Of a stretch of 38,930 nt of DNA, positions 30,001-33,000 are shown piece by piece. The DNA comes from a virus (lineage: Duplodnaviria; Heunggongvirae; Uroviricota; Caudoviricetes). Within the stretch, counting starts at the first letter, position 1, and the number at the start of each line of letters is the position of its first letter. The stretch lies in IMG/VR virus record IMGVR_UViG_2545824708_000026; one strand, given 5' to 3'. The position numbers are program-made.

Positions 30001-33000
30001 CCACGCCAGGAAAAAATGAATGCGCTTGCGAAATTTCTAAACGTTGATGTTGTTTGGCTTCAGCACGGCACTTCGTTAAATGGAGCGAATGATGAAGATA
30101 CTTTTTCAATTGTTGGCAAATTAAAAAAAGGGTTAGTGCGCGTGGTTGGTGAGGCAATTCTTGGTGTTGATGGTGCCATCGAGATGACCGAAGAGCGCGA
30201 TGGGTGGCTCAAGATTTATAGCGATGATCCAGATGCCTTTGGTCTTCGTGTAAAAGGAGACAGCATGTGGCCCAGAATTAAATCAGGAGAATATGTACTC
30301 ATTGAGCCTAACACCAAAGTATTCCCAGGTGATGAAGTGTTTGTCAGAACCATTGAAGGGCACAACATGATCAAGGTTCTTGGCTATGACAGAGACGGAG
30401 AATACCAATTTACAAGCATCAATCAAGACCACAGGCCAATAACGTTGCCTTATCATCAAGTAGCAAAGGTGGAGTATGTGGCTGGTATTTTGAAGCAATC
30501 TCGCCACCTAGATGACATCGAGGCAAGGGAATGGATTAAAAGTTCGTGACTTCATCGTCACATAGCTGGTAACCAATGGCCTGAAGAGACGTTTGGGTGA
30601 CAAGAAGCATAGGTATTAACAATAACTTTCATGGTGATACGAATCAGTGGCTAAAAAAGGCGACTTTAAGCCTACCCAGAAAGAGGTTGACCAAGCTATT
30701 ACTCGCTTGAAAAAAGTAACTTTTAGCGGAGTTTCGTGGACCGGAAGTGAGGGACGAACCCCAATCTGGTTTAAATTGGATCTCAAAGCTTTTGATGAAA
30801 TTGGCAACCCAATCACAGGCATAAGATTTATGCTTCACTGGCGTTCTCCTATCGTTGAAGGGGTGGATATAGTGAAGCTTTCATTTGTGATGTTTCTTCA
30901 TGACAGGCGCATTTACGCGCTTGACCCGTACCCTGCGCATAACAAGTCACACCGTAATAAATCTATAGTGCACCATCCAGATTTTGTTGAGGTGGCTCGA
31001 GGTCCTCACTATCACATGTACTTCGAATCAGCTGGGGAAGAAATTGCACTCAAGCTTGAAACGAACATCAAGCCAGATGATTTTTTTGGCTACTGGAATT
31101 ATTTTTGCGAGGCGCTTAATATCATATATGAAGGCAGCCCACCTTTACCGAATCAAGATAAATCAGGTCAGCTATCATGGGAAATGTAACGTGTTCAACA
31201 GTCATATCTAAGCTCGGGTTTGAATGCCACCCAATGAGCGACACGTTGCTGCGCGTTATTAGTCCCTTCACATACTACGATGATTGTGAGCAGATAAGCG
31301 TATTCGTTCAAGAGATGAGTGGTCAGTATAGGGTTACAGACTACTGCGATACATTGATGAATATTGAATCACGCGGCATCCACCTGACTAAAAAGAAAAT
31401 TGATCTGATCAGGTCATCACTCGCTTCGCAAGGAATTTCATTAAATGACTCTGGAGAGATATCTGCGTGGGCAGATGAGTCGTCCGTTGGACAGGTAACT
31501 GCAAATGTTATTCGTGGTGGGATTCTTGCATCCGCCCAAACTGCTGATTGGTATGCTGAGGTCAAAGACGATAAGTTCGAAAAATGTGTAATCAGTTACT
31601 TAAAATCAGCAGGGCTTGGGAAGCGACTAGCCTTAAAGGAAAAAGTGAAAGGTATTAGTGGGCATAACATTACTGTTCCGTTAACGCTAAGGAATGAGTC
31701 TCGACTAATACCACCAAAACGCGGGTTTACGGTAAGCCTTGCCAGCAGTAAAGGATGGAATACTGCCCACTCAACAGTTGGGAAGATTGTTGACTTAAGT
31801 CAGGTCGTTCCTGACATAAACAATAGATTTGTAATAGTTGACAGCGATGGGTTAACACCTGAGCTACAGCAACTATCACTACTATTTAATGATACCGCAC
31901 GAGTGTTGCCATTCCATACCAGAGACTCTTGGATTGACTCTCTGGTAGCCTAGAAAAACCCGGCCTCTGCGCCGGGTTTTCTTTACCTCACGTTCGCCTC
32001 CCCTATTTAACATCCGCATATGTGCTAACCCACGAACTAACACGCCAGCAATACAGTCCTTTCTCCCCTACAGACCAATCTTCAATCTTTGCAAAAATAA
32101 ATTTCATTACATATCAAAAACTTATCTAATAAAATTAAAGAGTTGCAAAATCTCGTACTTGCAGTTCTTGATAATATCGAACTATTAGTTCATTATTATC
32201 GCCGTCAGCAGGATGCTGGCAGCCAAACGGAACAGATTGGCAGGCTCTTTAACTTCGATGGGGCGCTGACAAAGCGCAAACAGATACCAAACGAGATGGA
32301 TTTGGCGGTGATGTGAATTGCAGCTGCAACGACAGCAACCAGAAGATCAGCATCTGGCACATCACCCCCAAAGCCATTTCACATGAGGAAAACATCATGA
32401 CGGTAATCGTGTACGGGAAATCAACATTTGCAGGAAATGCCAAAACTCGCCGTCATGAGCGGCGCAGAAAGCTGGCTATCGAGCGTGATGCTATATGCAA
32501 CATCATCGATTCGATCTTCGGCACAGACAGTGAGGAACCTGTTCAGGAAGCCCCGAGAAAACGTTTAAGCCTTTCTGAAAAAGCAATATCACTCGGAAGC
32601 CTTCGCTGCCAGAAGGCAGAAGAAGTCGAGCGTAAACAGAACCGTATTTACTACCGCAAGCCACGCAGTGAAATGGGTGTGACTTGCTCAGGCCGCCAGA
32701 AGCAACGCGGAAAATCAATTCCAGCTTATTACGATTGAGGTGAGCCATGCTCAAGAAAGTCAAACGCCGACTTTACAAAGAAGGTAGATATTCATGCCAG
32801 TTGCAAAAATGCGACACAACAAAATGGAGTGTCGATGATTGGTGTAACTGGATAGATAGATAGATACGGAACTTGGTGGGATAAATAACAGGTAACTTAA
32901 GCGTATTTACTTTCGCAGCAAACAACTTATTTGAGGTGATATATGGAAGAAGAATTTGAAGAGTTCGAAGAGCATCCTCAGGATGTGATGGAACAATACC

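What the first reader, a model, noticed from the sequence alone, without database searches (positions are those of the whole stretch)
30647..31953. Uncharacterised two-gene, AT-rich cassette in the rexAB slot directly downstream of cI: candidate lysogen-expressed defence or exclusion system
Two ORFs (180 and 258 aa) follow the cI repressor on the same strand. The second ATG (31177) overlaps the first stop (31187-31189) by 13 nt, which suggests translational coupling and an operon. The cassette ends at a strong hairpin terminator (31954-31984) just before OL/PL and N. It is visibly more AT-rich than the flanking lambda-like genes, typical of acquired accessory DNA. Neither protein resembles RexA/RexB (no membrane segments) or any family I recognise. 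ORF A has a His-rich stretch (HNKSHRNKSIVHHPDF...HYHMYF, including an R-x5-H spacing) that might be a metal or nuclease-type site, but that is speculation. In lambda this exact slot carries rexAB, and in other temperate phages it carries exclusion or abortive-infection genes transcribed with the repressor.
Basis: partly seen in the sequence, partly recalled or inferred. Interest (0 to 1): 0.85.

Follow-up and report, generated by a model that had tools for sequence, protein, structure and literature searches.

The report
Two-gene cassette riding prophage repressor operons
Two overlapping genes of unknown function sit directly behind the repressor gene of this E. coli prophage, in the slot where phage lambda carries rexAB; they travel as a fixed pair behind about 30 different repressors and are probably an untested anti-phage system made by the dormant phage.

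Summary
ORF A (30647-31189, GTG start, 180 aa) and ORF B (31177-31953, 258 aa) overlap by 13 nt. They follow a 933W-type cI and end at a hairpin/T-run terminator, upstream of a PL-like promoter and N. One claim fails: the cassette (43.5% GC) is no more AT-rich than cI (44.8%) or cro (41.8%).

The proteins are not family-less.
- **ORF B** is DUF1828 (type III secretion chaperone-like fold) plus a PD-(D/E)xK-fold domain (DUF1829-like). No canonical D...(D/E)xK motif is visible.
- **ORF A** belongs to a small family (184 clusters in 1.84 billion proteins) with no structural match. R88, H102, H121 and H123 are near-invariant.
- Both weakly hit the two components of the PADLOC candidate PDC-M24.
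- Their 40-51%-identical E. coli sister pair, present in Nissle 1917, is listed as 'predicted novel defense gene' by DefensePredictor (2026) and is absent from that paper's tables of tested and validated units (S6-S8).

In 92 of 92 loci A directly precedes B. The pair follows 30 different upstream-protein clusters; all 10 scanned are S24 repressors. 88 of 92 loci end in a terminator. dN/dS is 0.02-0.06.

The best reading is a lysogen-expressed two-protein exclusion or abortive-infection module. The mechanism is unknown. Interest is moderate.

The parts
29764..29841 (.). Divergent cro/cI control region (OR/PRM-like), with a perfect palindrome CGTACTTTCAGTACG at 29779-29793
   Evidence: Lies between cro (annotated start 29763) and the cI ATG at 29842. 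Palindrome. The promoter assignment is inferred from lambdoid architecture.
29842..30549 (+). cI repressor, 235 aa, 933W-type immunity
   Evidence: HTH_3 plus Peptidase_S24. At least 95% identical DNA occurs at full length in 427 E. coli genomes and 103 phage records, many of them Stx phages.
30562..30600 (+). Fossil 3' end of a different (HK97/lambda-type) cI gene; a recombination scar at the left edge of the cassette
   Evidence: Translates to IAGNQWPEETFG*, against VIASQWPEETFG* at the true end of cI in L020. The DNA is aligned.
30601..30646 (+). 46-nt linker that travels with the cassette; Shine-Dalgarno-like GGTGA at 30633-30637; no promoter or terminator match
   Evidence: Same length and near-identical sequence as the cI-to-A gap in L020. 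No promoter or terminator hit on the + strand. Folding energy is not unusual, z = 0.38.
30647..31189 (+). ORF A, 180 aa, soluble and beta-rich; near-invariant R88 (30908-30910), H102 (30950-30952), H121 (31007-31009), H123 (31013-31015); conserved, low-confidence C-terminal tail
31177..31189 (+). 13-nt overlap of the ORF A stop region with the ORF B start (translational coupling)
   Evidence: The overlap is 13 nt in 48 loci and 4 nt in 43 loci out of 92.
31177..31953 (+). ORF B, 258 aa. N-terminal DUF1828 domain (about residues 1-125, type III secretion chaperone/YbjN/XisI-like fold). C-terminal PD-(D/E)xK-fold domain (about residues 130-258, DUF1829-like) with invariant G159-x-S161-x-H163
31955..31985 (+). 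Intrinsic terminator closing the cI-A-B unit (the position equivalent to lambda t_imm)
   Evidence: A hairpin plus T-run within 45 nt of the B stop occurs in 88 of 92 loci.
32154..32196 (+). OL/PL-like operator half-match and promoter-like hexamers (TTGATA-17-CATTAT); tentative
   Evidence: These are consensus matches only.
32397..32738 (+). N-like antiterminator, marking the start of the leftward early operon
   Evidence: phrog_271, E 2.4e-45.

Best explanation
The cassette is a lysogen-expressed, two-protein superinfection-exclusion or abortive-infection module that has become part of the prophage repressor operon.

Shown:
- A and B are real genes under strong purifying selection.
- They are always adjacent, in the order A then B, with overlapping stop and start.
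- In every locus sampled they lie downstream of, and on the same strand as, the nearest large upstream ORF. All 10 of the 30 upstream-protein clusters that I scanned are cI/LexA-type repressors.
- In the window's own linker there is no detectable promoter or terminator between cI and A.
- An intrinsic terminator follows B.

Inferred:
- Transcription comes from the repressor promoters (PRM in the lysogen, PRE during establishment), so both proteins are made constitutively in lysogens.
- Translational coupling gives matched amounts, and the two proteins act as a complex.
- B supplies a chaperone-like DUF1828 domain that holds either the conserved, flexible C-terminal tail of A or a protein of an incoming phage.
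- B also supplies a PD-(D/E)xK-fold (DUF1829-like) domain that binds or cuts DNA.
- A supplies a conserved three-histidine (plus arginine) site, most simply a metal-dependent catalytic or sensing centre.
- Infection by a heteroimmune phage releases or activates the effector and blocks phage growth. The resident prophage benefits.

Which protein is sensor and which is effector, and what the target is, cannot be decided from sequence.
For: Genes are real:
- dN/dS is 0.055 for A and 0.023 for B over 27 distinct cassettes.
- Structure models are confident: pLDDT 83.7 and pTM 0.81 for A, pLDDT 82.1 for B.

Fixed pair:
- 92 of 92 loci with B have A directly upstream, overlapping by 13 or 4 nt in 91 of them.
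- The same holds in Pseudomonas and Burkholderia prophages at 20-27% identity.

Repressor operon:
- The nearest upstream same-strand protein falls into 30 clusters at 80% identity.
- All 10 representatives scanned carry Peptidase_S24, and 9 of them also a scored HTH domain.
- The gap to A is often only 39-106 nt.
- The window's linker has no promoter or terminator match.
- A terminator follows B in 88 of 92 loci.

Swappable slot:
- The same cI is in 427 genomes, but this cassette is in only 65.
- The slot holds a serine/threonine kinase cassette in O157:H7, which I recognise from memory as 933W stk, an exclusion gene.
- It holds a 299-aa unknown in phage 1H12 and gp49/gp48 in HK97.
- A fossil end of another cI sits at 30562-30600.

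Defence-specific support:
- Both proteins hit only PDC-M24A and PDC-M24B in PADLOC.
- The sister pair WP_001062368.1 and WP_000968518.1 are both 'Predicted novel defense gene', log-odds 4.9-6.3, in one transcription unit (PMC13092281 Tables S5 and S10).
- DUF1829 occurs in the validated HipAD system (DS-6B).
- The defective Nissle 1917 prophage keeps cI-A-B although its integrase is truncated and an IS has inserted nearby.
Against: - No experiment shows protection. The sister cassette does not appear in the DefensePredictor tables of tested and validated units, S6-S8, which are held uncut.
- PADLOC 'PDC' entries are unpublished candidates (PMC11811056).
- The PADLOC hits are weak and partial: A at E 1.5e-3 over 50 residues, and B at E 6e-7 over only its N-terminal 100 residues.
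- The canonical PD-(D/E)xK catalytic residues are not evident. H163 sits where the Asp would be, and the third strand has no (D/E)xK. Nuclease activity is therefore not supported.
- Position in the slot is compatible with other lysogen-expressed functions.
- DefensePredictor may itself lean on prophage-like context, so it is not fully independent evidence.
Confidence: 0.55

Rival explanations
1. The pair is a toxin-antitoxin-like addiction module. A (or B) is toxic, the partner neutralises it, and the pair stabilises the prophage or the immunity region. Any anti-phage effect would be a by-product.
For: The layout is a tightly overlapping two-gene operon with the small protein first. The only validated system with a DUF1829 protein, HipAD, is proposed to work as a toxin-antitoxin pair with the DUF1829 protein as the neutralising, DNA-binding partner encoded second (PMC13092281 section 7). 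The cassette is retained in a decayed prophage.
Against: There is no similarity to any known toxin or antitoxin family in Pfam, NCBIfam or PADLOC. One natural case has A disrupted by an insertion sequence while B stays intact. That is tolerated, but it does not say which partner would be toxic. Many toxin-antitoxin systems are themselves defence systems, so this rival overlaps the main explanation.
Confidence: 0.13
2. The pair serves the phage's own lysis-lysogeny control. A and B would modulate repressor stability, RecA-dependent cleavage, induction or establishment, in the way that secondary roles are ascribed to lambda RexB. They would not act on other phages.
For: In every sampled locus the cassette sits just downstream of the nearest large ORF, and all 10 scanned of the 30 upstream clusters are S24 (self-cleaving) repressors. 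It was never seen in another genomic context, including the 7 full-length hits in reference genomes and 3 distant homologues. Linkage this strict could reflect functional coupling to the shared S24 domain and not only shared transcription.
Against: Phages with the identical cI work without it and carry unrelated cargo instead. The cassette moves between heteroimmune regions as a unit, leaving scars. Remote relatives (PDC-M24) were catalogued as defence candidates. Sampling was biased towards viral contigs.
Confidence: 0.12
3. The pair is a lysogenic-conversion or host-fitness gene set unrelated to phages (stress, DNA metabolism, colonisation), or a counter-defence function expressed at establishment from PRE.
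For: Expression from the repressor operon only implies a function useful in or to the lysogen. It occurs in commensal and probiotic strains, with the sister type in 241 of 5426 genomes including Nissle 1917.
Against: There are no signal peptides or membrane segments. No hit to metabolic or virulence families was found. The domain content (PD-(D/E)xK fold, PDC-M24 relatives) and the DefensePredictor scores point to immunity.
Confidence: 0.08
4. The ORFs are non-functional hitch-hikers or mis-called reading frames.
For: None beyond the lack of annotation.
Against: dN/dS is 0.02-0.06 at dS around 0.4-1.0. The pair is conserved from E. coli to Pseudomonas and Burkholderia. The fold predictions are confident.
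Confidence: 0.02

Closest known systems
PADLOC candidate system PDC-M24 (components A and B; unpublished and unvalidated candidate)
   Same: It is a two-gene system in the order small A then roughly 255-aa B. ORF A family members hit only PDC-M24A models, and ORF B family members hit only PDC-M24B models.
   Different: The hits are weak and partial. For A the E-value is 1.5e-3, over the last third of the protein only. For B the E-value is 6e-7, over only the N-terminal 100 of 256 profile positions. The C-terminal domain of B is not recognised. No defence phenotype for PDC-M24 is recorded in any paper I could search.
The ev207 / Nissle 1917-type cassette (WP_001062368.1 plus WP_000968518.1), listed as 'predicted novel defense genes' by DefensePredictor (Science 2026, PMC13092281)
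   Same: It has the same architecture and the same slot behind cI, with a terminator, and a 4-nt overlap in place of 13 nt. A is 40% and B 51% identical to the window proteins. HHpred in that paper gives DUF1828 at 99.5% and DUF1829 at 98.8%.
   Different: It is a different sequence type (4-nt overlap; 185 and 250 aa). It is in 241 E. coli genomes, against 65 for this one. It does not appear in that paper's tables of tested and validated units, S6-S8.
Lambda rexAB
   Same: Same genomic slot and expression logic: two genes downstream of cI on the same strand, closed by a terminator before OL/PL. In some prophages the A/B cassette follows an HK97/lambda-type cI at a 39-46 nt gap.
   Different: There is no sequence similarity. 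RexB is a polytopic membrane protein (own knowledge), whereas A and B have no membrane segment. PADLOC gave no Rex hit.
933W stk cassette (serine/threonine or tyrosine kinase that excludes HK97; function recalled from memory, Friedman et al. 2011)
   Same: It occupies the same slot behind a 96%-identical cI in O157:H7 prophages.
   Different: Its proteins are unrelated: DUF3024, a hypothetical protein and a kinase.
HipAD (DS-6) defence system
   Same: Its second protein carries a DUF1829 (PDDEXK clan) domain and is encoded downstream of its partner.
   Different: The partner is a HipA kinase, and the N-terminal domain of HipD is DUF3037, not DUF1828. No kinase is present here.
PD-(D/E)xK nucleases of defence systems (Can2/Card1, NucC, type II restriction enzymes such as NgoMIV and PspGI)
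   Different: Sequence identity is 6-17%. The catalytic D...(D/E)xK is not recognisable; the invariant residues are G159, S161 and H163. There is no CARF or other sensor domain. Instead the N-terminal domain has a type III secretion chaperone-like fold.

Membership tests
Lambda RexAB | Sequence homology to RexA and RexB | tested here: not met
   PADLOC gave no Rex model hit at E <= 1. The PHROG hits are families of unknown function.
Lambda RexAB | A membrane-channel component (RexB has multiple transmembrane helices; own knowledge) | tested here: not met
   The maximum 19-residue Kyte-Doolittle mean is 1.22 for A and 0.79 for B.
Lambda RexAB | Located downstream of cI on the same strand, ahead of a terminator and OL/PL | tested here: met
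   conserved across loci.
PADLOC PDC-M24 (candidate) | Adjacent genes matching the PDC-M24A and PDC-M24B profiles | tested here: inconclusive
   A scores E 1.5e-3 (16.9 bits, residues 111-160). B scores E 6.3e-7 (27 bits, residues 5-104 of a 256-position profile). Across the families, about 10-19 of 57 A members and 7 of 7 B members hit, and no other system is hit.
Pfam DUF1828 | Score above the gathering threshold | tested here: met
   40.9 bits against a cut-off of 22; residues 30-112 of ORF B.
Pfam DUF1829 (clan PDDEXK) | Score above the gathering threshold in the C-terminal domain | tested here: inconclusive
   The window protein and ev207 give no hit even at E 10. The Burkholderia homologue gp47 scores 25.5 bits against a cut-off of 22.2. 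The B. glumae homologue gives a weak hit. HHpred gives 98.8% for the 51%-identical WP_000968518.1 in PMC13092281 Table S5.
PD-(D/E)xK nucleases | The alpha-beta-beta-beta-alpha-beta core fold | tested here: met
PD-(D/E)xK nucleases | Catalytic Asp at the start of strand 2 and (D/E)xK in strand 3 | tested here: not met
   Strand 2 begins S161-G-H163 and strand 3 reads G-F-T-V-S. The residues invariant across distant homologues are G159, S161, H163 and G202. This was judged from the alignment plus predicted secondary structure, not from a residue-level superposition.
Pfam DUF6978 | Score above the gathering threshold | tested here: not met
   21.1 bits against a cut-off of 29.6, covering the C-terminal 60 residues only. 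12 of 57 close and mid-range members match at E <= 0.01, and 4 of 92 diverse members match at E <= 0.001.
Type III secretion chaperone / YbjN-like fold (CesT, SicP, ShcA; DUF2170; XisI) | The fold of the N-terminal domain of B | tested here: met
HUH endonucleases / HIT hydrolases / cupins (considered because of the P-H-x-H motif in A) | The characteristic fold plus a catalytic Tyr (HUH), an HxHxHxx motif (HIT), or a second cupin motif | tested here: not met
Type II toxin-antitoxin systems | One partner is toxic and the other neutralises it | not testable with these tools
   Only the operon layout is compatible.
Validated anti-phage defence system (any) | Reduced plating of at least one phage when the system is expressed | not testable with these tools
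   No experimental report was found. There are no relevant papers for DUF1828, DUF6978 or PDC-M24, and none for the protein accessions. The sister cassette does not appear in the held tested-unit tables of PMC13092281. Brenes and Laub 2025 (Cell Host Microbe) could not be read.

The most novel reading that the evidence does not exclude
A and B form a mechanistically new immune module. A would be a previously undescribed protein fold with a conserved Arg plus three-His centre, acting as the effector or the sensor. B would control it through a secretion-chaperone-like domain fused to a PD-(D/E)xK-fold domain that has lost the canonical catalytic residues. The module would be obligatorily wired into CI/LexA-type repressor operons, so that immunity against other phages is coupled to the lysogenic state.
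Probability: 0.3. Interest if true: 0.7.

Novelty: new variant of a known kind. Interest (0 to 1): 0.5.

Why it matters
If the cassette protects lysogens, it adds a widespread system to the short list of exclusion systems hard-wired to prophage repressors. This type and its sister type together occur in about 300 of 5,426 complete E. coli genomes, including Nissle 1917 and the E. coli type strain. Relatives occur in Pseudomonas and Burkholderia prophages.

It would give a first function to DUF1828 and to the ORF A family, whose predicted fold matches nothing solved.

It also provides a clean natural experiment. The same 933W-type cI carries at least three different cargoes in one slot, and recombination scars are visible, so the slot can serve as a search handle for further lysogen-expressed systems.

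The test is cheap: clone the cassette, plate a phage panel, and mutate H102, H121, H123 and S161/H163.

Tried and rejected
- **ORF A, sequence to structure:** phmmer and a profile search against PDB sequences found nothing below E about 0.9.
- **ORF A motif ideas:** I considered HUH endonuclease, the relaxase three-His motif, the HIT triad and the cupin HxH...E motif because of P-H-Y-H. I rejected them: there is no conserved Tyr, no third HIT histidine, and no fold match.
- **NCBIfam:** no hit for either protein.
- **ORF B, sequence to PDB:** only chance-level TCP-1 hits at E about 0.1; the profile search found nothing.
- **Locus search with the A alignment:** I used the ORF B alignment instead.
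- **AT-richness as a sign of acquisition:** rejected. The recombination scar is the better evidence for acquisition.
- **Known RNA elements in the cassette:** none at the Rfam gathering threshold.
- **Internal promoter for A or B:** the only + strand promoter-like matches inside the cassette are at 31577-31606 and 31811-31838, within the 3' half of B. They are not useful for expressing either gene. The count is within chance (8 found against 5.3 +/- 2.5 expected).
- **P0134:** a 1,643-aa protein that matched the A profile 13 times is a tandem-repeat surface-type protein. I treat it as a spurious summed hit.
- **Literature:** no relevant paper for DUF1828, DUF6978, PDC-M24 or the protein accessions, nor for the PhiR phage names. 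Brenes and Laub 2025 is not held, so I could not check whether that prophage screen recovered this cassette.
- **Bury et al. 2018 (PMC5987069):** the 'pr' gene they cloned from Nissle prophage 3 was a 410-bp amplicon. It cannot contain A-B, so that result does not bear on the cassette.
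Full report
**1. The observation**

The window is a lambdoid prophage read in the reverse of the usual lambda map. On the minus strand lie O (28201-29100), cII (29133-29429) and cro. 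On the plus strand lies a 235-aa repressor with HTH and Peptidase_S24 domains (29842-30549).

Downstream on the same strand are:
- ORF A, 30647-31189, GTG start, 180 aa.
- ORF B, 31177-31953, ATG start, 258 aa, overlapping A by 13 nt.

RefSeq annotates the same two genes in identical prophages, as 'hypothetical protein' and 'DUF1828 domain-containing protein'.

Directly after the ORF B stop, a GC-rich hairpin and T-run (31955-31985) folds at -17.7 kcal/mol, z = -3.2. After it come an operator-like half-match, a promoter-like site and an N-like antiterminator (32397-32738, phrog_271, E 2e-45).

Neither protein has a membrane segment.

The cassette is 43.5% GC, which is indistinguishable from cI (44.8%), cro (41.8%) and the N leader (43.8%). 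GC3 is 0.41 for cI, A and B. The whole immunity region is AT-rich, not the cassette alone.

**2. The genes are real and form a fixed pair**

Across 27 distinct cassettes of this sequence type, median dN/dS is 0.055 for A and 0.023 for B, at dS of about 0.4-1.0.

I collected loci from IMG/VR, GTDB reference genomes and annotated phages and searched their ORFs with profiles of A and B.
- All 92 loci with B have A directly upstream on the same strand.
- The overlap is 13 nt in 48 loci and 4 nt in 43 loci.
- The pair persists at 20-27% identity. In Pseudomonas phage phPA-G the A gene is unannotated but present, with an ATGA overlap. It is also in Burkholderia phage phi644-2 as gp48/gp47, in B. glumae prophages and in another enterobacterial prophage.

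**3. Where it lives**

The nearest upstream same-strand protein falls into 30 clusters at 80% identity.
- All 10 representatives scanned carry Peptidase_S24, and 9 of them also a scored HTH domain.
- One cluster is the HK97/mEp234-type cI.
- The gap between repressor and A is commonly 39-106 nt.
- In 88 of 92 loci a perfect-stem hairpin with a T-run lies within 45 nt of the B stop. The other 4 loci (3 distinct sequences) have imperfect versions or a weak T-run.

In the window, the 97 nt between cI and A contain no promoter or terminator match and no unusually stable structure.

That intergenic stretch is informative. Positions 30562-30600 translate to IAGNQWPEETFG*, the C-terminal end of an HK97/lambda-type cI (VIASQWPEETFG* in L020). 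It is followed by the same 46-nt linker that separates that cI from A in L020. The cassette therefore entered this 933W-type immunity region by recombination, bringing along the stump of its previous repressor gene.

The slot is a swap site.
- The same cI (at least 95% identical, full length) is in 427 E. coli genomes and 103 phage records. This cassette is in only 65 genomes and in no phage record at DNA level.
- Behind the same cI, O157:H7 prophages carry DUF3024, a hypothetical protein and a serine/threonine kinase. From memory this is the 933W stk exclusion cassette.
- Phage 1H12 carries a single 299-aa unknown. HK97 carries gp49/gp48.

**4. What the proteins are**

*ORF B*
- It matches Pfam DUF1828 above threshold in residues 30-112.
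- Its model (pLDDT 82) has two domains.
- The C-terminal domain matches PD-(D/E)xK nucleases: Can2 10.5, NgoMIV 9.3, PspGI 9.2, NucC 7.4.
- The C-terminal domain of the window protein does not hit DUF1829. The Burkholderia homologue does, at 25.5 bits against a cut-off of 22.2. HHpred in PMC13092281 gives DUF1829 (clan PDDEXK) at 98.8% for the 51%-identical E. coli homologue.
- The canonical catalytic residues are not evident. Strand 2 starts S161-G-H163 and strand 3 lacks (D/E)xK.
- The residues invariant across distant homologues are C6, C17, D36, D55, D58, G93 and E94 in the N-terminal domain, and G159, S161, H163 and G202 in the C-terminal domain.

*ORF A*
- It belongs to a small family: 184 clusters at 50% identity among 1.84 billion representative proteins. 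Almost all of the best 150 listed are stand-alone proteins of 180 aa or less, apart from shorter fragments.
- Its only Pfam link is a sub-threshold match of the last 60 residues to DUF6978.
- In 92 diverse members, K22, W31, R88, H102, H121, H123, F153 and P168 are at least 90% conserved.
- H121 and H123 alternate on one strand, as expected for a metal-binding pair.
- The C-terminal tail (PLPxQDxSGQLSWEM) is conserved from E. coli to Pseudomonas. It is modelled with low confidence, as is typical of a segment that folds on a partner.

**5. Links to defence**

In PADLOC, both proteins and their families hit only PDC-M24A and PDC-M24B respectively, weakly. PDC entries are unpublished candidate systems (PMC11811056).

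The sister cassette is 40% (A) and 51% (B) identical.
- It is in phages ev207 and ev017, PhiR63_2 and an Stx1a phage.
- It is in 241 of 5,426 E. coli genomes, including Nissle 1917 and ATCC 11775.
- In DefensePredictor (Science 2026, PMC13092281) Tables S5 and S10, both WP_001062368.1 (log-odds 4.9-5.4) and WP_000968518.1 (5.6-6.3) are 'Predicted novel defense gene' within one transcription unit.
- They do not appear in that paper's tables of tested and validated units (S6-S8), which are held uncut.

The DUF1829 domain that the paper reports as newly validated belongs to a different system, HipAD. There the DUF1829 protein is proposed to neutralise a HipA kinase and bind DNA.

I found no experimental paper on this cassette. 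Brenes and Laub 2025, the most likely place for one, is not held.

**6. Most likely mechanism**

Shown:
- An operon-like unit (repressor, A, B, terminator) in which A and B overlap, under purifying selection.
- It is mobile between immunity regions.

Inferred, at about 0.55 confidence for the function and much lower for the details:
- It is transcribed from the repressor promoters in lysogens.
- The two proteins form a complex.
- The DUF1828 domain holds either the tail of A or a phage protein.
- The PD-(D/E)xK-fold domain engages DNA.
- The three-His centre of A is catalytic or sensory.
- Infection by a heteroimmune phage activates the pair and blocks the infection.

Rivals:
- A toxin-antitoxin addiction module (0.13), which partly overlaps the main explanation.
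- A role in the phage's own repressor or induction control, suggested by the strict linkage to S24 repressors (0.12).
- Another lysogenic-conversion or counter-defence role (0.08).
- Non-functional ORFs (0.02, refuted).

**7. Comparison and novelty**

The cassette works like rexAB, or like the kinase cassette behind the same cI in O157:H7, in position and expression logic. It fails every sequence and topology criterion for RexAB membership. It is a distant, sub-threshold relative of the unvalidated PDC-M24 candidate, and a sister of a cassette already flagged by machine learning.

It is therefore not a discovery of an unknown locus. It is a new variant of a known kind (repressor-operon accessory immunity candidates) whose biochemistry is open.

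A specialist would not be surprised to find a defence candidate in this slot. Three things are noteworthy:
- The invariance of the pairing and of the repressor linkage across the 30 upstream repressor clusters.
- The visible recombination scar.
- A partner protein with no recognisable fold relatives.

Interest is 0.5.

Noticed in passing
window 30562-30600: A 39-nt remnant of the 3' end of a different (HK97/lambda-type) cI gene, translating to IAGNQWPEETFG*. It lies between the resident cI stop and ORF A and is followed by the same 46-nt linker seen in prophages where that cI is intact. It is a recombination scar showing how the cassette moved between immunity regions.
   Followed up: yes
L094 (E. 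coli O157:H7 FRIK944) 4269-6346; L093 (phage 1H12) 4338-5237; L096 (HK97) 3951-4855: The slot behind the same or a related cI holds unrelated cargo: DUF3024, a hypothetical protein and a Ser/Thr kinase in O157:H7; a 299-aa phrog_4506 protein in 1H12; and gp49/gp48 in HK97. All but the kinase are of unknown function and would be candidates of the same kind.
   Followed up: partly
L097 (Aquipseudomonas campi) 6001-9953: The ORF A homologue is truncated near its 3' end by an insertion of about 2.7 kb. The insertion carries a 453-aa transposase-like ORF (my guess: ISL3 family) and a 310-aa ORF. The ORF B homologue, 251 aa, is intact downstream. This is a natural knock-out of A.
   Followed up: partly
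L101 (E. coli Nissle 1917 prophage 3, next to icd): This defective prophage has a truncated integrase and an IS3-family insertion and lacks the recombination genes, yet it retains cro, cI, A, B, an N-like gene and sieB. The public RNA-seq GSE109932 (PMC5987069) could show whether A-B is expressed. That paper attributes lambda and Stx phage resistance partly to this prophage and states that other prophage genes remain to be tested.
   Followed up: partly
L003 (Pseudomonas phage VB_PaD_phPA-G) 3483-4004: The ORF A homologue is present but not annotated in the GenBank record. It overlaps the annotated DUF1828-type gene by ATGA. An extra 216-aa gene sits between the CI-like repressor and the cassette.
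   Followed up: yes
window 33824-33882 (+): Rfam Lambda_thermo (the cIII thermoregulator element), 88.5 bits. This places cIII about 1.9 kb downstream of the cassette, as expected for the PL operon.
   Followed up: no
window 38179-38267 (+): An Rfam sRNA-Xcc1 match, 69.3 bits against a gathering score of 53, near the right end of the window. Its role here is unknown.
   Followed up: no
window 22626-22781 (-) and 1009-1083 (+): tRNA-Thr(tgt) and tRNA-Asn(gtt) lie within the window on the minus strand. tRNA-Arg(cct) lies near the left end and is possibly the integration site.
   Followed up: no
L012 (Actinomadura rugatobispora, 518-bp contig): A 518-bp contig in an actinomycete assembly encodes the A/B junction at 57% identity to the enterobacterial ORF B. 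It is most likely contamination of that assembly and not a genuine actinobacterial copy.
   Followed up: no
P0134: A 1,643-aa protein made of about 13 near-identical tandem repeats matched the ORF A profile 13 times over positions 126-160. On inspection it is a repetitive surface-type protein, and I treat the hit as spurious.
   Followed up: yes
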